A stretch of DNA of 64,000 bases from the human T2T-CHM13v2.0 reference genome, Homo sapiens. The position numbers and the translations under genes are program-made. The first letter of the stretch is position 1. The number at the start of each line of letters is the position of its first letter. Shown here piece after piece: positions 49,721 to 64,000 of this stretch. The notes beneath the pieces were generated by a model. The model was not told where the DNA came from. It saw only the letters and a program-made list of their open reading frames with translations, and did not search any database. Location: NCBI RefSeq assembly GCF_009914755.1, contig NC_060930.1; one strand, written 5' to 3'.

Positions 49721-49939
49721 GCCTGGATCTGACACTTCTTAGCTGTTTGCATGACCTTTGGTGAGTTGCCTCAGTTTCCACCTCTGTAAGGTAGGGAGGA
49801 TAGAGTATCTACCTCAAGGGTTGTTGTGAAGATTAAGAGTTGATACTTGTAAAATGCTTAGAATAGTTCCTGGCACACAATAGGTACTCATTAAGTGTTT
49901 GTTGTTTGTTGTTGTTGTTATTGTAACCATTATTGCTTA

Positions 49940-50025
49940 TAGGAAAGTCCCTTGTCTGGGAAACCCTCGGTCCTGGTTTTAGCATGGAAAGTCCCATGGC
50001 CTTGGTAAAAGTTCAAAACGGGTCC
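49940..50025. mobile_element. MER81-like (hAT-Blackjack) fragment with two perfect kB sites
   Basis: ggttttagcatggaaagtccc unit shared with 52909-53070; GGAAAGTCCC at 49942 and 49986. Confidence 0.65.
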
Positions 50026-50879: not shown

Positions 50880-51600
50880 GACGCGCGGGGTCGAGAGGCT
50901 GCGGGCTCGGCGGGCGGAGGGCGCATGGGAGCCTCTTGGCCCTGGACCTGCCCCTGCAATCCTTCCGCGGGATCTCTTGGACCCTCTCCAGGGTCCTGGC
51001 TCTGAGACGTTGCTAGAGGACAAATCCGCGGGATTTAGAGCGCGGCCAATGGGACAGCGGTGCCTGGCTGAGTGTCAGGCAAAACTAGCCAATAAACATG
51101 TAGTTTGGGCAAGGTGGGTCCGTCCCCTAACTCGGACCTTATAAAGCGCGCCCGCTGCTCCCACAAAGCCGGGCTGTCCCAGGCTGAGGCGGTTGCTCCC
51201 CTGCCGGGTGTGTTAGAAGCAAGTTAGAGGAAGAAGGTCTTGGGGACTACGGGCGCCACCGAGAACCCATACGAGGCAGCCGCCGACGGCGGGTCGCCGG
51301 GGCGGGGCCAGAACGGCGCCAAGGCCAACCAGAACGGCGGCAAGAACTAGGGGGACGCGGGGCAGGTGCTGTGGGAGTTGGCTGGACCTGTGGGATCGAC
51401 GTCTGCGCCGTCCAGGAGCCGCCCAGGGGAGAGAGCGGAGACTCGGGAGGAGGATGTGCGCTCCGACCCGGGCAAGGCTTCCCATCCCTCCCTTCCTCTT
51501 CTCTCCTTCCCTCCACCTGGGCTCGGAGTCAGGATCTGACCGCGGGCTCTGCCCAGGAAGACCGAGTTCCTTGAGAGCGACACCTAAGCGCCGGGGAAGA
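50880..51600 (+). promoter_or_regulatory. CpG-island promoter with two CCAAT boxes and a TATA box
   Basis: Dense CpGs; CCAAT 51046 and 51089; TATAAAG 51140-51146; inferred TSS ~51170. Confidence 0.85.
51210..51361 (+). pseudogene. HNRNPAB-like unprocessed pseudogene, first coding exon homolog
   Basis: VLEAS*RKKVLGTTGATENPYEAAADGGSPGRGQNGAKANQNGGKN*GDAG vs hnRNP A/B MSEAGEEQPMETTGATENGHEA...NQNGAEGDQINASKNEEDAG; ATG>GTG, two TAG stops, phase-2 donor now gcaggt. Confidence 0.85.
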
Positions 51601-51994
51601 CAGGGATAGAAGAGACGACAGCCCTTTGATAAGAGGGTTTTTAGACTAACTTCCACCTGTGACGAGTGCATGGGGCCTGCGCCCTGAGAGGTTGCCTTTC
51701 CTTTTCCTCTCCCACCCTGGGGGTTTGTGGTGATGTTAAGTTCTGTTAGGACCAAGGTGGATCTCAGTAAGGAGGTAGAGTAGATTTGTGAACAGCTGTC
51801 GGAGGTAGAATCTTTGCAGACCCAGAGTGGGTGGGTGTAGACACTTTGCCATGGGTGGTAGCTTTATTTGTAATCCTCCCAGTGAAAGCTTTGGGAAATC
51901 CAGCCCTCCCAAACTCTTGCCTTTCTTGTAAGACTTTCTAAGCGCATGGCTTTGTCGTAAGACTTCTCGTGGCCATGTGTCTCACCCTACCGTT

Positions 51995-52159
51995 CGTCTC
52001 ACCAATGAACCAGAGCTGGGATACCAGCAAAAAGGACCCAAAAGACTGTTTCACCACAATTGAAGAGGTCGTGGACCATCCCCCAAAATGAATCCCAACA
52101 CTGGAAGACCAAGAGGGTTGACGTTTGCTATCTTGAAAGCTGCAGCCCCCGTAGAGAAG
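51995..52159 (+). pseudogene. HNRNPAB-like pseudogene, RRM1 exon homolog
   Basis: [49 protein letters not shown]|gtaagc vs [50 protein letters not shown]; -1 frameshift near 52083; 5' edge eroded. Confidence 0.9.
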
Positions 52160-52899
52160 GTAAGCTGTGTATTCCATCAAAGGTCTGTGTGTGCAGGATT
52201 GCATTTCCAAGAGAAGGCATTCCTGGATCATGATCATTTTGTCTGAGCTGCATGTGGCCAAGTGCACTGGGGGAAGCAGAGTTTAGGAACTTGTTCCTGT
52301 ATGGATTAAGTGGGAAGTGAAAAGTATTAAATATATGGGCGGGAGTGGTCCAGGAAGGGGAGAGTGGACATTTAGTACCTGTTTGGGCCCCTGCACTAAA
52401 TGCTTCACATATAAGGATTAGAAAAACACCCAAAGATTCTTAGATAGGCATTTCAGTGCCATTTTACAGAAGGAAAAACTAAGATGCAGAGAGGATTAAG
52501 CAACTAGAAGAGACCACATAGTGAGTAAAGCGTGGAACAGCAAGGATTCCAACCCTGTAGCGCAGCTTTATGTCTGGAGGAAGCAAGTCTTAGACTGGGA
52601 CTGTCAGGCCAGGAAGAAAACTCAGAGCATGGACAAAAGGTTCAGAGGGAGTGAGGACCGATTTATATGTGTTGAGGTAAACCAGGTGGATTTCTGTTTT
52701 GGAGAAAATTGGGAAGTCAGGCTTAGGTAGAGGGTGGTGTGTTTGGAGGGGATAAAATATTTTGTGCACCTGTAGTTTGTGTATTCCACCTGTGGTAGAA
52801 TCTTGTGGCTCAGAAAGAAAGAACCTGCCTCGGGTAATGCTACTAAGAAATGCCAAACAGAATTAGAACCAGAGTCTACTTAACCCCCTTCTCAGAAGA

Positions 52900-53110
52900 A
52901 ATTGTCCAGGTTTTAGCACTGAAAGTCTTACATCTTGGGAAACTGAACCGTCCCAGTTTTAATGCTAAAAGTCCCTCATCCTGGGAAATCCCTTAGCTGT
53001 GGTTTTAGCACTGACAGTCCTGCTTCCTAGGAAACTCCTTACTTCTGGTTTTAGCCCTGAAAGTCCCCAAACCCCTTAGTCCTTGGCAAATCTGGATGAT
53101 TGATCCACTT
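52900..53110. repeat. 4 x 46-bp tandem array of a MER81/Blackjack subterminal unit
   Basis: (g/a)gtttta(g/a)..ct(g/a)a(a/c)agtc starts at 52909, 52955, 53001, 53047. Confidence 0.8.
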
Positions 53111-53128
53111 ACCCTTCTGTTGGAACAG

Positions 53129-53288
53129 ATCCTAGAGCAGAAGGAGCACAGGCTGGGCTGCCATAGCATGGACCCCCAAAAAGCCACTGTCATGAAGAAA
53201 TATCCTGTGAAGAAAATCTTTGCAGGGCACCTGAACTCCCAAAGCCACTGAGGAGAAGGTAAGGGAGTACTTTGGTGAGTTTGGGGAG
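53129..53288 (+). pseudogene. HNRNPAB-like pseudogene, RRM1/RRM2 junction exon homolog
   Basis: aacag|[53 protein letters not shown]|gtgaat vs [53 protein letters not shown]; 160 nt vs 159 expected (+1 frameshift). Confidence 0.92.
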
Positions 53289-53488
53289 GTGAATTTCTCC
53301 CCAGGATATGGTTTATGCTCCCCACCAGCCACCAGTGGATGCTTTTTTCTGTTTTCCTTGGCTGGTGGAGTTGTCAGTGGAGCTGCTCTCACCTCCTTTC
53401 TTGCCTTTGGAGGGCCGCCTTTTCTGAGTTCCCTTTAGGGCCTGAGCCAGGGGAAGGCATTGGCCCTGAGCTTTGCCTGTGTTTCCAG

Positions 53489-53618
53489 ATGGAGGCCATT
53501 GAACTTTCAGTGGATCCAAAGTCTAACAAAAGACAATGTCTTGTTTTCGTCACCCCCCAAAGAAGAGGAACCTGTGAGAAATATTCTGGAGAAATTTAAC
53601 ACCATCAGTGGAAGCAAG
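53489..53618 (+). pseudogene. HNRNPAB-like pseudogene, RRM2 exon homolog
   Basis: ttccag|MEAIELSVDPKSNKRQCLVFVTP/KEEEPVRNILEKFNTISGSK|gtgagg vs [44 protein letters not shown]. Confidence 0.92.
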
Positions 53619-53692
53619 GTGAGGAGTCTCTACCTCCATGTGCCTCCCCTCCTGCCTCTGGAGAGGTAGCCCTTTGGTTAATGGCAACCCAA

Positions 53693-55230
53693 TAGGGTAA
53701 CCAACCATCCCATTTTAGCATTGAGAGCATTGTGTCCTGGGAGACCCTTCCCTGGAATGTAAATAATCCTGGTTTTAGCAACAAAGTGTGGAAGGTTGGA
53801 GGAAATGCACAAAACCCGTAAGTTTTAGAGGGTCTGAAAGCAACATTGTCTATCAAATGGATACGGCACAGATTATTCATCTTTACTTGTTGTCACCCAT
53901 TTGACCACTGATACTGGCAACCATAATTTGTAGTTCAGAATGGTCATCCATCCATCGTTGCATCATTCAAAGTGATGTGGCTTAAGTGTATATAATGATT
54001 ATTAATAGTTCATCTTCGACTTTGCCTGTGGATTAATTGGTGTGCTTTGTAACAAGATAGTGCTAGTTTAATTTTTTAACATTGTGAATATTGTGACCAT
54101 GTTTTCTAAGAGGTCAGATAATGAGAATGGTTATAATACCAATGCAACCATGACCCCATCACTGAAGAAGAAGGCTAAACGACTATGTAATTTTGATGAT
54201 GGATGGAAGGACACATACTACTGAACTAGGAAGGTAAATAACCAAAACAGAGCATACTACATAATATACAGAAAAAAATTTGAGATTGGACATGGTGGAG
54301 AAGGGGATGTGCAAGCACATATGGAGGGCAAATCTCACAAGTAAGATGGGACAGGTGAATGCTTCTAAACCAATCAAAAATACCTTTGTTTCCCCAAAAG
54401 ACACCAATGCTCAGTCAAAAATAGCAGCTGCTGAATTAGCATGGGCATACCAGGCAAATAAGCCTGCATTGTCATAGCGTTCCCTTGATTGCTCTATGAA
54501 ACTGAGTAAAGTTTCATTTCCTGATTCAAGAATTGCAGCTAAAATATCCTCTGGACAAAGAAGAAGGGAAATTTTTTGATAACAGATGTGTTGGCTCCTT
54601 ACAGTATAAAGCCAATTTCTGTCATATCTCACCAACAATCCTGGTTTCTACAGTACATCAATTTTAAGTAATATGCCAAATCATGGCAGCAAAAATATGT
54701 TCCCTCTAGCTGTTAGGTACTTTGACTTGAAAACAGGAGTTTCAAATCATCTTCTTCATTTCTGTGAGGATTTTAATGAAACTGCTGAAATCATAAAATA
54801 TTGTTGATATTTTGTCTAAATACAAACTAGACTTAGCTCATCTATCTGTGTATTCGTCAGACAGTATAGATGTAAAATTTTGGCAAATTGCATTCAGTCT
54901 ACAAACTTCTTACCAAAGAAAATGAAAAGATCTTATCCATTCAATGCCTTGTACATCTTATATACAACACTGCTAAAAAGGGATGTGAGTTGCTTAAATG
55001 TGACATTGAGACTTTCATAATGAAAGCTTTTGGTTACTTTTCAATTTCCTCAAAAAGTGCAAAAGCACTTATGGAGATTTTTGACTTCACAGAAATGGAA
55101 GGTAACCTCTTTAGACGTGTGCCTGCAAGATGGCTGTCATTGTAAGTGAGCCATAGAAACGATGCTAAAATGTTGGCCTGCCATAAGATCATATTTTCAA
55201 AGGACAAGAATAATGTCCTTTGACATTGTT
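53693..55230 (+). mobile_element. hAT (Blackjack-type) DNA transposon with a degenerate transposase
   Basis: TIR-like tagggtaaccaaccatccc at 53693; ATG 54099 MFSKRS...KRLCNFDDGW; degenerate Zn finger AYYIIYRKKFEIGHGGEGDVQAHMEGKSH; SNMPNHGSKNMFPLAVRYFD (first catalytic D region); CLVHLIYNTAK (CxxH); ARWLSL and CWPAIRSYF; many stops and frameshifts; no C-terminus seen. Confidence 0.85.
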
Positions 55231-55529
55231 TGAAATCTGAAAGGAGAAAAAAATCAAGAATCTGAAGTGGGCCTTAAAAAAATCAGTAAGTCCCTTGTGA
55301 CTCTGATTTTTATGAATCTGTCTCTCAAAAGCCAGGGTGCCCCCAGAAGAACTGAGACAAACTGAGTTTCTGAACATTTGAAAATGAGGAGCAGGCTCAG
55401 GATCCACAGGGTGTAACCATCCCGTGAGGCCCTGCCTGAGCAGCCAGCCAGTCAGTGAGGCTCTTCACCTTACTTCCATTTCTCTGATTCCATCTATGTA
55501 CAACTTACGAAAACTTGCATTATTATAGA

Positions 55530-55972
55530 CTGGGAGTTCTTAAATTGGAATCTGTGAATCTAAAGGGGCCAGAGGATAGAAATCAGGAAATCTGAAAACT
55601 TCGATGGAAAAAAGTTTTTATTTATTTCCATCAGGAAAATAGGCAACAAACCACAGCAGTATTAGTACCTGTGTCTCTGTCATCACTAGGAATCACAGAT
55701 ATCCACGTTACAGATATCTTAAAATATTTATGTACAGCACCACTCTGAAATTATGGTAATAATTAGATCCACCCCCTAGGTCTTGTAATCTTTAATATGT
55801 TAATAAAGAAGCACATCTATTATGTGACAGATTTAAATGTTTAAGAATTTGATTTCAATGAAATTGCATTTCAATAAAATTGGCTTCCTTTGCAATCCTG
55901 TGTATTTTATTTTGTGCATTTCTCCAGACTGCCAAAGAGGTTGGTGACACATTGAAAGTTAAGAGTCTCTGC
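55530..55972. mobile_element. old hAT-Charlie-like fragment
   Basis: gggagttcttaaattggaatc...ccagactgccaaagaggttggtgacacattgaaagttaagagtctctg terminal motifs. Confidence 0.5.
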
Positions 55973-57170: not shown

Positions 57171-57589
57171 AGGTCAGTTTAAGTTTCGTTCCTGGGATTG
57201 AGCGGATTGCCTTGCATTAGGCAAGGTTTTAAGTGCTTTCCAACTCTGGAATTCTATACCTTTCCCAGTAGATATCTAAACCCAGCAAATCCTGGGCCTG
57301 AAGTTTAAAACTAGGATCCTCGTCTCCCAACCACATCTAGATGATCCCATAGTGTAATGAAGGGTGCTTGGGCTTTGACACCAGGCAAACTTGGATTTTG
57401 ACCTGGGACAACTAAGTCACTTGACCTCACTGAACCTTAGCTCCCTCCACTGACAGTGGGGACAGTCTGCTGGAGGGTGTGTAGAAGACCTCGGGTTGCC
57501 TTTTGGAGGTTCTGGAAATGTCCCTTGAAAGATGAATGGAGTTAATTTAAAAATCTTCGCCTTCTGTAATTTTGGCTTCTTGCAAACAC

Positions 57590-58100
57590 GCTTCCTGCCA
57601 GTCCTGCTCCGTCAGGCGGGAGGCAGCAAACCCCAGCCCTGGCTCCAGGACAGGGCCGAAGGCAGGATAGACGGAGCAACGGGTCCGGCTGCCGCCGGGA
57701 TGTTGCAGCACAGGGCCTCCTGGCTGCCTGGCCTACAGGCCGCCCGGATTCAGCCGGAGGGCATGGACCGGGTGGAGTCCTGCAAGGCGAGAAGGGACAC
57801 AGCGCATGCGCGCGGCAGGGAGGGCGTTTCCAGGAGGGAGCGGCCTTTGCTCAGCGCGAGACGGCTGGGCGCCGAGTGGGACAGCGCTGGTGCGGAGACT
57901 GCTTCCGGACTCCAGGTACCGCGCTTGGCGGCAGCTGGCCCCAGACTTCTGTCTTTTCAGCTGCAGTGAAGGCTCGGGGCTGCAGGTGAGCTGTGCATCC
58001 CGCAATGGAGACCTTCCTGCTCTGAATTTTCTTACAAAACTGCAGAAATATAAGGGGCGTTGCTTAGCGGGCATCCCCTCCCCCGCGCCAAACCTGTACA
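57590..58100 (+). promoter_or_regulatory. TMEM14A: TMEM14A CpG-island promoter
   Basis: CpG-rich; NRF1 palindrome GCGCATGCGC 57802-57811; ETS-like CTTCCGG 57902. Confidence 0.85.
57850..57985 (+). other. TMEM14A: TMEM14A non-coding exon 1 (5' UTR; start approximate)
   Basis: Ends at donor ctgcag|gtgagc; splices to ctttag|aattgc at 63827, 16 nt before the ATG. Confidence 0.8.
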
Positions 58101-63750: not shown

Positions 63751-63842
63751 GCGTATCATTTTTAGATACATTCCCTCCCCAAAACTTTTTTATTTTGTAT
63801 AATTTGTCCTTTCCCCCTTGCTTTAGAATTGCAACCTTGCCA

Positions 63843-63912
63843 ATGGACCTGATCGGTTTTGGTTATGCAGCCCTCGTGACATTTGGAAGCATTTTTGGAT
63901 ATAAGCGGAGAG
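63843..63912 (+). CDS. TMEM14A: transmembrane protein 14A, first coding exon (partial CDS)
   Basis: MDLIGFGYAALVTFGSIFGYKRR(G) is the TMEM14A N-terminus; acceptor ctttag|63827, donor gag|gtaagc after 63912. Confidence 0.96.
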
Positions 63913-64000
63913 GTAAGCCTAACCCAAATTTTCATGAAAGGGAATTAGTGGGGGTTTGGAGGTTGTGCTAGGTCATGTGAGGCTCTGTAAGTAGGATGAG

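What the first reader, a model, noticed from the sequence alone, without database searches (positions are those of the whole stretch)
53489..55230. Candidate fossil RRM-hAT transposase fusion gene
Seen: hnRNP A/B homology stops at the phase-0 donor after GSK (53618), and I found no Gly-rich C-terminal exons downstream. A same-strand Blackjack-type element starts at 53693. An AG at 54109-54110 (gttttctaag|AGG TCA GAT) would join in phase 0 to the transposase frame (RSDNENG...KKKAKRLCNFDDGW), followed by Zn-finger, catalytic-D, CxxH and RW motifs. Known: host-transposase fusions by exon capture exist (SETMAR, CSB-PGBD3, KRAB/SCAN fusions), but I know of none with RRMs. Inference: either an extinct RNA-binding/DNA-binding chimera, or a gene-trap insertion that truncated the paralog. 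Caveats: the AAG acceptor is weak, lies four codons after the transposase's own ATG (54099), and would be in frame one time in three by chance.
Basis: partly seen in the sequence, partly recalled or inferred. Interest (0 to 1): 0.8.

Follow-up and report, generated by a model that had tools for sequence, protein, structure and literature searches.

The report
Dead HNRNPAB copy abutting hAT transposon
A broken partial copy of the RNA-binding gene HNRNPAB lies directly in front of a broken hAT transposon on human chromosome 6; the two could once have been spliced into one protein, but in the human line both halves look as if they simply decayed.

Summary
lncRNA LOC730101 is an unprocessed partial duplicate of HNRNPAB: promoter, exons 1-4, homologous introns. 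Homology with HNRNPAB stops at 53674, 19 nt before the 5' end (53693) of a same-strand Blackjack-type hAT element. No downstream HNRNPAB exon exists.

- The AAG acceptor (54109-10) is ancestral to the transposon.
- By inference it is the site used in an independent, conserved RSRP1-transposase fusion protein (P0002/P0003).
- One unnamed database protein (P0047) joins this paralog's RRMs to this transposase, through different splice sites.
- Another ortholog (P0015) keeps both RRMs open.

Against a selected fusion on the human line:
- RRM exons carry at least 3 frameshifts, a lost ATG and stops. One stop is shared with a leaf monkey.
- The transposase has 6 frameshifts and 5 stops, both zinc-finger Cys are Tyr, and its last third is missing.
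- Paralog dN (0.187) equals the neutral estimate (half of intron K, about 0.18).
- The transposon copy (K 0.186, dN/dS 0.50) falls within, at the low edge of, 23 genomic copies.
- No GSK|RSD junction was found.

Verdict: a decayed truncated duplicate whose terminal exon runs through a transposon. A short-lived or non-primate fusion remains possible, at about 15%.

The parts
51042..51370 (+). Duplicated HNRNPAB promoter end and pseudo-exon 1 (N-terminal region). The initiator position reads GTG (51210-12) and there is an in-frame TAG at 51225-27.
   Evidence: blastn to human HNRNPAB locus: 51042-51107 (70%), 51241-51369 (78-79%). Alignment to P0013. Sequence read.
51993..52159 (+). Pseudo-exon 2 (RRM1). 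It has a scrambled start and a 1-nt deletion near 52083 that gives TGA at 52089. The donor at 52159 is still used by the lncRNA.
   Evidence: (75.5% identity to HNRNPAB exon 2). RefSeq exon end 52159 comes from the hub table.
52832..53117 (+). Non-autonomous Blackjack-type element (MITE) in intron 2, with four 46-nt subterminal-type repeats at 52909-53082. The 5' limit is approximate.
   Evidence: (family D1/D2, copies also at 53711-53779). Intron 2 is 969 nt here against 719 nt in HNRNPAB. The limits were read by eye.
53129..53291 (+). Pseudo-exon 3 (end of RRM1, start of RRM2). A 1-nt insertion near 53237 gives TGA at 53249, shared with a leaf-monkey protein.
   Evidence: (79.9%). P0008 ends at the same stop.
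53492..53618 (+). Pseudo-exon 4 (RRM2). It has a 1-nt insertion near 53551 and a 3-nt deletion, and ends in the phase-0 donor AAG|GTGAGG. A cryptic donor CCT|GTGAGA lies at 53573|53574.
   Evidence: (79.4%).
53619..53692 (+). Remnant of HNRNPAB intron 4. Detectable homology ends at 53674.
   Evidence: 70.8% over 65 aligned nt.
53693..55413 (+). Blackjack-type hAT transposon, 5' end intact and 3' part missing. TIR at 53693-53711, subterminal repeats at 53711-53790, ATG at 54099, transposase remains from 54099 to 55314 or beyond (possibly 55413).
   Evidence: terminus. (68.5% identity to P0004, 67% to P0002 aa 80-445; 6 frameshifts and 3 stops, plus 2 more stops at 55231 and 55363). (DNA homology to the other copies ends near 55220). 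(no 3' TIR, no repeat of the 8 nt before the TIR, no C-terminal homology downstream).
54102..54112 (+). Candidate acceptor TTTTCTAAG|AGG (AG at 54109-10; exon start 54111 is phase 0 in the transposase frame). A second AG lies at 54111-12.
   Evidence: Ancestral in the family...TCTAAGAG... in 4 of 9 human copies that reach the start, the others differing by 1-2 bases.
55530..55970 (+). Short element with terminal inverted repeats. It resembles a hAT-Charlie-type MITE, a resemblance that is recalled and not tested. It supplies the AATAAA (55873-55878) in front of the lncRNA 3' end at 55893.
   Evidence: arms 55538-55555 and 55947-55964, 78% complementary. Sequence. The RefSeq end comes from the hub table.

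Best explanation
The locus is a dead, truncated DNA-level duplicate of HNRNPAB. It holds the CpG-island promoter, exons 1-4 encoding both RRMs, and homologous introns. It ends, within 19 nt of the last alignable base, at the 5' terminus of a same-strand Blackjack-type hAT transposon, which has itself lost its 3' third.

Today (shown or annotated): the duplicated promoter drives lncRNA LOC730101. The RNA is spliced at old HNRNPAB sites (donor 52159, acceptors 53129 and 53489). It does not splice at the old exon-4 donor (53618). It runs through the transposon to a poly(A) signal in a further small element. No protein can be read: every RRM exon and the transposase are broken.

History (inferred): the duplication and the transposon insertion are about equally old, at or before the split from the lineages of P0015 and P0047. 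At that time the RRM frames were open, and the transposon carried a real acceptor in phase with the GSK donor. Chimeric RRM-transposase mRNAs were therefore probably made.

On the lineage to humans neither half was held by selection for any measurable time. Both drifted at the neutral rate.

I cannot tell whether the missing 3' exons were never copied or were lost in one deletion together with the transposon's 3' part.
For: RRM side:
- DNA homology to HNRNPAB covers exons and introns, with matching intron sizes (203 against 200 nt; 719 against 969 nt including a roughly 285-nt MITE).
- Homology ends at 53674, with none in 30 kb of the HNRNPAB locus for anything downstream. tblastn finds no C-terminal exon.
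- Lesions: ATG to GTG, TAG at 51225, and 1-nt frameshifts near 52083, 53237 and 53551. The TGA at 53249 is shared with Trachypithecus P0008.

Neutrality of the RRM exons:
- Paralog against HNRNPAB: dN 0.187 over 147 codons (6 skipped).
- Intron K2P is 0.31-0.46, weighted about 0.35, hence about 0.18 per lineage.
- The paralog differs at 38 of 113 positions that are invariant in four HNRNPAB-type proteins.

Transposon side:
- 6 frameshifts and 5 stops. There is no hAT dimerisation region, no 3' TIR and no target-site repeat.
- dN/dS to a leave-one-out consensus is 0.50, fourth lowest of 23 copies (range 0.39-0.89).
- K2P is 0.186, about equal to the per-lineage neutral distance since the duplication.

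No GSK|RSD junction:
- 3 of 3 proteins found with the N-terminal ORF begin at the transposon's own Met.
- Both RefSeq transcripts in the hub table read through 53618.
Against: - The window copy is the best preserved of the 23 human copies compared. Its K2P of 0.186 is the lowest (others 0.205-0.403), and its lesion density is 8.2 per kb against a median of about 13.5. A pre-specified copy ranks first by chance 1 time in 23.
- P0015 keeps about 212 codons of the paralog open and colinear with HNRNPAB. P0015 and P0047 differ from invariant HNRNPAB positions less than the human copy does (26/114 and 26/105 against 38/113).
- P0047 is a single ORF that joins this paralog's RRMs to this transposase.
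- In a tree, the non-human transposase ORFs that group with the window copy have paths of 0.13-0.19, against 0.30 for the window copy and 0.33-0.69 for other human fossils. This could mean constraint outside primates, though ORF-based sampling biases it.
- dN/dS against dS alone is 0.30. With dS as the neutral yardstick the paralog branch would be about 0.6, not 1.
Confidence: 0.65

Rival explanations
1. Fossil of a once-functional host-transposase fusion gene. After the truncated HNRNPAB duplicate arose, its exon-4 donor spliced to the transposon's own acceptor. This gave an RRM-RRM-transposase protein (or RRM-RRM-zinc-finger protein) that was kept by selection in the common ancestor, and perhaps still is in some non-primate mammals. 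It died in primates.
For: - The donor and the ancestral acceptor are both phase 0.
- The same acceptor position is, by inference, used in the conserved RSRP1-transposase proteins P0002 and P0003. These are 88.7% identical, and both are intact at 732-733 aa.
- P0047 is an RRM-transposase chimera of the orthologous locus with an intact C-x2-C...H...H pattern.
- P0015 has open RRMs.
- The window copy is the least diverged of 23.
- Related non-human ORFs have short branches.
Against: - P0047 does not use the GSK donor or the AAG acceptor. It reads the end of exon 4 in a shifted frame, drops 3 residues at one junction, skips 61 nt-equivalents inside the transposase, and ends at residue 155 of the transposase. 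This is typical of a model patched over a pseudogene. Its source is unknown.
- P0015 continues after GSK into an unrelated tail, not into the transposase.
- Only 1 of 113 RRM relatives holds transposase sequence. No RRM+hAT cluster appeared in the Atlas.
- The first aromatic residue of RNP1 is already lost in both RRMs of all three orthologs.
- The human-line rates are neutral.
Confidence: 0.15
2. Gene trap of a complete, functional paralog. A full HNRNPAB duplicate existed. The transposon landed 74 nt into intron 4 and truncated its transcripts, which killed the gene. A later deletion removed the transposon's 3' part together with intron 4 and exons 5-8.
For: - Intron-4 homology continues up to the insertion point, as expected of a simple insertion.
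- The transposon's 3' third, its 3' TIR and any target-site repeat are missing, which fits one deletion.
Against: - No trace of exons 5-8, the 3' UTR or flanks is found anywhere in the window.
- Neutral dN since about the time of duplication leaves little room for a functional complete paralog on the human line.
- P0015 shows that the RRM frames stayed open after the time at which the transposon was, by inference from P0047, already present. The insertion itself did not end the open frame.
Confidence: 0.15

Closest known systems
Host-transposase fusion genes born by exon capture (SETMAR, CSB-PGBD3, KRABINER), as described in Cosby et al., bioRxiv 10.1101/2020.05.07.082677 (passages seen)
   Same: The transposon lies on the same strand behind host exons. 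The acceptor sits at the start of the transposase ORF and is inherited from the ancestral transposon, matching their '8/9 cases' rule. The phases are compatible.
   Different: In human there is no supported junction, no open frame and no sign of selection. The host part would be an RNA-binding module.
RSRP1-transposase proteins P0002 (named by its source as an uncharacterized protein of Diceros bicornis minor) and P0003 (Microcebus murinus)
   Same: They hold the same transposase family.
   Different: They are intact at 732-733 aa, 88.7% identical to each other, and carry the hAT dimerisation domain. The host part is RSRP (PF17069), not RRM. No intact human counterpart was found.
Unprocessed (duplicated) pseudogene transcribed as a lncRNA
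   Same: Introns and promoter were copied. Frameshifts and stops are present. It is transcribed and spliced at inherited sites.
   Different: It is truncated exactly at a transposon terminus. Orthologs with open frames exist in other species' records (P0015).

Membership tests
hAT superfamily DNA transposon (Blackjack-type) | Terminal inverted repeat at a terminus shared by other copies, with unrelated flanks | tested here: met
   The 5' terminus TAGGGT(A/G)ACCAAC... at 53693 aligns with the termini of L020, L010 and L012. It is unique in the window. The 3' TIR is absent.
hAT superfamily DNA transposon (Blackjack-type) | 8-bp target-site duplication | tested here: inconclusive
   The 8 nt before the TIR (CAACCCAA) do not recur downstream, but the 3' end of the element is missing.
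hAT superfamily DNA transposon (Blackjack-type) | Transposase homologous to hAT transposases, with CxxH and RW motifs | tested here: met
   67% identity to P0002 aa 80-445 and 68.5% to P0004. CLVH and RW are present. Pfam and PDB searches with single fragments found nothing.
hAT superfamily DNA transposon (Blackjack-type) | hAT C-terminal dimerisation domain (PF05699) | tested here: not met
   It is present in relatives: P0002 (24.3 bits, above the cut-off) and P0003 (20.3 bits, just under). The window copy ends near residue 450-500 of 733.
hAT superfamily DNA transposon (Blackjack-type) | Match to the curated Blackjack consensus | not testable with these tools
No Dfam or Repbase library is on hand.
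hnRNP A/B-D subfamily (HNRNPAB paralog) | Two RRM domains homologous to HNRNPAB exons 2-4, with the same intron positions | tested here: met
   DNA identity is 75.5-79.9% in exons, and the introns align. Five shared derived residues unite the human copy with P0015 and P0047. Orthologs P0015 and P0047 pass RRM_1. Human fragments alone give only E 0.098.
hnRNP A/B-D subfamily (HNRNPAB paralog) | Gly-rich C-terminal region (exons 5 onward) | tested here: not met
   No protein or DNA homology lies downstream of 53674.
hnRNP A/B-D subfamily (HNRNPAB paralog) | Open reading frame | tested here: not met
   The start codon is lost, there is a TAG at 51225, and there are at least three 1-nt frameshifts.
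Host-transposase fusion gene | Spliced junction between host exon and transposase | tested here: inconclusive
   No GSK|RSD junction was found (RefSeq table). P0047 joins the two through other sites, and its provenance is unknown. No RNA-seq tool is available.
Host-transposase fusion gene | Acceptor derived from the ancestral transposon | tested here: met
   The 9 human copies that reach the start centre on ATG TTT TCT AAG AGT TCA GAT. The phase-0 exon end of RSRP1 implies that this AG is used in P0002 and P0003 (inference).
Host-transposase fusion gene | Single ORF under purifying selection | tested here: not met
   This holds for the human line only. There are many lesions. dN 0.187 is about half of intron K. 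The transposon's dN/dS lies within the family range. Other lineages could not be tested.

The most novel reading that the evidence does not exclude
The truncated HNRNPAB duplicate was completed by capture of the Blackjack transposase N-terminus, which holds the zinc-finger region. This produced, in the ancestor of primates and of the lineages behind P0015 and P0047, and possibly still in some non-primate mammals, a selected RRM-RRM-transposase protein. It would be the first host-transposase fusion whose host module binds RNA. LOC730101 would be its human fossil.
Probability: 0.15. Interest if true: 0.8.

Novelty: new member of a known kind. Interest (0 to 1): 0.45.

Why it matters
LOC730101 is studied as a cancer lncRNA: 72 papers hold the name (listing). 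None of the 15 listed titles and abstract starts concerns its origin, and the only paper that also holds 'HNRNPAB' is a transcriptome study (listing). Knowing that it is a truncated HNRNPAB duplicate ending in a transposon explains three things: its CpG-island promoter, its splice sites, and its repeat-built terminal exon.

For transposon biology, the locus shows the raw state from which host-transposase fusions arise. The pieces are a host donor, an ancestral in-phase transposon acceptor, and a truncated gene in need of a 3' end. The same transposon family shows a successful capture elsewhere (RSRP1).

If the fusion was ever functional, it would widen the known host partners from chromatin and transcription domains to RNA-binding domains.

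Tried and rejected
- Pfam on single open fragments of the window (one search failed on my coordinates and was corrected). The fragments were too short: only RRM_1 at E 0.098.
- PDB sequence search. The RRM fragment hit hnRNP D-like at E 0.005. The transposase fragment hit nothing.
- P0001, a 247-aa 'open' ORF orthologous to the window copy (23 of 40 private states shared), at first looked like evidence of long ORF maintenance. I rejected this. 3 of its 5 Trp fall on human TGA codons, all 4 stops in that human stretch are TGA, and P0007 is the window itself read with TGA as Trp. P0001 is therefore probably a TGA=W translation. It also carries a frameshift with a compensating shift.
- Search for a 3' TIR, a target-site repeat or subterminal repeats downstream: none found.
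- DNA search of the genome with 53640-53900 found only the query itself.
- Human RSRP1: no transposase lies within 10 kb after the junction exon.
- Viral and prokaryote contig collections searched for the non-human loci: nothing.
- Atlas search with P0047: only RRM clusters.
- The two papers (RRM + domesticated transposase + hAT) are a meeting report and a review by title.
- One search found no RRM term in the F-box preprint.
- The listing on hAT-Blackjack was not used.
Full report
OBSERVATION

The coordinates hold. After the codons for GSK comes AAG|GTGAGG (53618|53619). The transposase ATG is at 54099 and the AG at 54109-10. The intervening 492 nt are a multiple of three, so a join at 54111 is in frame.

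The terminus TAGGGTAACCAACCATCCC at 53693 occurs once in the window. It lines up with the termini of three other coding copies of the family in the human genome, whose flanks are unrelated.

Two more AGs follow at once (54111-12, 54116-17). Between the in-frame stop upstream of the ATG and the first stop of the ORF, 6 of 8 AGs are in phase 0.

THE RRM SIDE

The window's own genome can be searched, so the parent gene could be compared directly. Human HNRNPAB has coding exons separated by introns of 795, 719, 203 and 2101 nt.

The window holds homologues of:
- the promoter end and exon 1 (51042-51369),
- exon 2 with intron flanks (51959-52256),
- part of intron 2 (52595-52774),
- one unbroken stretch of exon 3, intron 3, exon 4 and 55 nt of intron 4 (53112-53674).

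Intron 3 is 200 nt, against 203 in HNRNPAB. Intron 2 is 969 nt against 719, the excess being a Blackjack-type MITE with four 46-nt repeats. This is therefore an unprocessed, DNA-level duplicate.

Nothing downstream of 53674 matches 30 kb around HNRNPAB. Nothing downstream matches the C-terminal halves of HNRNPAB-type proteins either.

The copy is broken:
- the initiator position reads GTG,
- TAG follows at 51225,
- exons 2, 3 and 4 each carry a 1-nt frameshift (near 52083, 53237 and 53551), giving TGA at 52089 and 53249.

The TGA at 53249 also ends the leaf-monkey protein P0008. That lesion is therefore older than the split of apes and Old World monkeys.

THE TRANSPOSON SIDE

The longest open fragment (89 aa) found two intact 732-733-aa proteins, P0002 and P0003. 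They are named by their sources as uncharacterized proteins of a rhinoceros and a mouse lemur. It also found shorter unnamed ORFs.

P0002 and P0003 carry an RSRP domain at the N-terminus. A hAT dimerisation domain follows near the C-terminus: above Pfam's cut-off in P0002, just under it in P0003. This places the family in hAT.

A frameshift-aware alignment shows the window copy from its own Met (54099) to about residue 445-500 of 733. It is 68.5% identical to P0004. It has 6 frameshifts and 3 stops, plus two more TGA at 55231 and 55363. Both zinc-finger Cys are Tyr.

DNA homology to the other copies stops near 55220. Protein homology to P0004 reaches 55314. No 3' TIR, target-site repeat or C-terminal homology follows.

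The lncRNA ends at a poly(A) signal (55873-78) inside a further small element with inverted ends.

THE ACCEPTOR

Nine human copies that reach the N-terminus centre on ATG TTT TCT AAG AGT TCA GAT. Four of the nine have TCTAAGAG exactly. The pyrimidine run plus AG is therefore ancestral, not a chance product of decay.

In P0002 and P0003 the host part ends ...KFE and the transposase part begins S(L/S)DNE. The homologous exon of human RSRP1 ends ...CCT GAA|GTAAGT, which is phase 0. A phase-0 donor needs an acceptor at a codon boundary just before the Ser codon.

This is an inference from proteins and from the human exon, not from the DNA of those species. If it is right, it shows the weak-looking AAG acceptor working in a conserved gene. 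P0002 and P0003 are 88.7% identical.

No intact counterpart exists in the human genome. There is no transposase within 10 kb after that RSRP1 exon.

ORTHOLOGUES IN THE PROTEIN LIBRARIES

The single exhaustive search, with P0008 as query, gave 112 proteins. Three matter here.

P0015 (280 aa) has both RRMs open and colinear with HNRNPAB for about 212 codons. After GSK it continues into an unrelated tail, which looks repeat-derived; that resemblance is recalled, not tested.

P0047 (310 aa) has the same RRMs and then transposase residues about 38-155 in one ORF. It is the only one of 113 RRM relatives with transposase sequence.

The human copy, P0015 and P0047 share five derived residues at positions that are invariant in four HNRNPAB-type proteins. 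They are therefore orthologues of one paralog.

- it leaves exon 4 at the position of a cryptic donor (human CCT|GTGAGA, 53573|53574),
- it reads the last residues in a shifted frame,
- it enters the transposase where the family consensus has ...CAG|ATGG (the human copy has GGA there),
- it drops three residues at the exon 2/3 junction,
- it skips the equivalent of 61 nt after the zinc finger,
- it ends at transposase residue 155.

This is what a gene predictor does on a decaying locus. I could not learn where P0047 comes from.

With the transposon's N-terminal ORF as query, 3 of 3 hits begin at the transposon's own Met. The Atlas shows no RRM+hAT cluster.

P0067 joins paralog exon 2 to TMEM14A exons. 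In different records the orphan donors of this truncated gene pair with whatever acceptor lies downstream.

ORDER OF EVENTS (INFERRED)

P0015 has open frames, so the frameshifts of the human RRM exons arose after the lineages split. P0047 carries the transposon behind the same paralog, so the insertion most simply predates that split.

The RRM frames were therefore still open when the transposon was in place.

Relaxation had nevertheless begun. The first aromatic residue of RNP1 is lost in both RRMs of all three orthologues.

TESTS OF SELECTION ON THE HUMAN LINE

RRM exons:
- Introns differ from those of HNRNPAB by K2P 0.31-0.46, weighted about 0.35, hence about 0.18 per lineage.
- Nonsynonymous divergence of the RRM exons is 0.187 over 147 codons.
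- HNRNPAB itself hardly changes (93.5% identity between P0013 and P0014). Nearly all of that divergence lies on the paralog branch, which has thus run at the neutral rate.
- dS is 0.62, giving a pairwise dN/dS of 0.30. If dS rather than intron K is taken as neutral, the paralog branch is about 0.6. Some early constraint cannot be excluded.

Transposon, compared with 22 other human copies on a codon-anchored alignment:
- K2P to a leave-one-out consensus is 0.186, the lowest of 23 (others 0.205-0.403).
- Lesion density is 8.2 per kb, against a median of about 13.5.
- dN/dS is 0.50, fourth lowest of 23 (range 0.39-0.89, median 0.66).

The copy sits at the well-preserved edge of its family but is not set apart from it. 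Its age matches that of the duplication.

In a tree, the window copy groups with P0001, P0004, P0005/6, P0010, P0011 and P0047, and with one other human copy (SH-aLRT 98). The non-human members have shorter paths (0.13-0.19, against 0.30). This may reflect constraint outside primates. It may also reflect a younger subfamily or the bias of sampling only long ORFs. I cannot separate these.

SYNTHESIS

Most likely (0.65), the locus is a truncated HNRNPAB duplicate that ends at a hAT transposon. Chimeric mRNAs were probably made early on, because the donor and the ancestral acceptor fit. On the line to humans nothing was kept by selection.

What survives is a promoter and a few splice sites. Together they yield a lncRNA whose last exon is mostly transposon.

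A selected fusion in the ancestor or in other mammals keeps about 0.15. A gene trap of a complete paralog followed by a deletion also keeps about 0.15.

COMPARISON AND NOVELTY

The mechanism considered is that of SETMAR, CSB-PGBD3 and KRABINER. In the Cosby et al. preprint I saw seven passages. They state that in 8 of 9 cases examined the acceptor lies just upstream of the transposase ORF and comes from the ancestral transposon. The terms RRM, RNA-binding, RSRP1 and Blackjack do not occur in its main text.

Paper searches gave the following:
- 'RSRP1' with 'transposase': 4 papers, none about a fusion by title or abstract start.
- 'LOC730101' with 'HNRNPAB': 1 paper, a transcriptome study.

Within that library, neither the origin of LOC730101 nor the RSRP1-transposase gene seems to be described.

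LIMITS

- No RNA-seq, no non-human genomes and no repeat library were available.
- The provenance of P0015, P0047, P0004 and P0010/11 is unknown.
- Rate estimates rest on 100-1100 sites and on my own alignments.

Noticed in passing
proteins P0002, P0003 (not in the window); human RSRP1 exon at G000:C1:25081411 (locus L042): Intact 732-733-aa proteins of a rhinoceros and a mouse lemur join the RSRP domain of RSRP1 to a full Blackjack-type hAT transposase. They are 88.7% identical, far better kept than any of 23 human fossil copies. No intact human counterpart was found. I found no paper on it. This is a candidate undescribed domesticated transposase.
   Followed up: partly
window 52088-52159, 57589-57660, 57960-57983, 63825-63914: Protein P0067 reads from paralog exon 2 into an exon upstream of the TMEM14A start and then into TMEM14A coding exons. 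In a related primate's record, the duplicated HNRNPAB promoter thus appears as an upstream alternative promoter of TMEM14A.
   Followed up: partly
window 52832-53117 and 49975-49993: Two more pieces of the same transposon family lie within 4 kb. One is a MITE with four 46-nt repeats in intron 2, ending about 11 nt before the exon-3 acceptor. The other is a repeat-unit match inside the RefSeq 'enhancer' 49900-49999. The clustering may reflect local hopping or a preferred target.
   Followed up: no
window 55530-55970: A small element with inverted ends supplies the poly(A) signal (55873-78) of LOC730101.
   Followed up: partly
protein P0018; window 53507-53640 and 51194-51571: A library ORF reads exon 4 through the GSK donor into the intron and then jumps to exon 1 sequence. 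It is either a back-splice or circular product, or an assembly artefact at a shared C-rich word.
   Followed up: no
G000:C12:9998457-9998924 (locus L001): An intronless HNRNPAB copy on chromosome 12, 79% identical over 211 residues, with two stops and no frameshift. It is an ordinary processed pseudogene.
   Followed up: yes
proteins P0007, P0009, probably P0001: The protein libraries hold translations of this human locus in which TGA is read as Trp. Such entries can mimic conserved open frames.
   Followed up: yes
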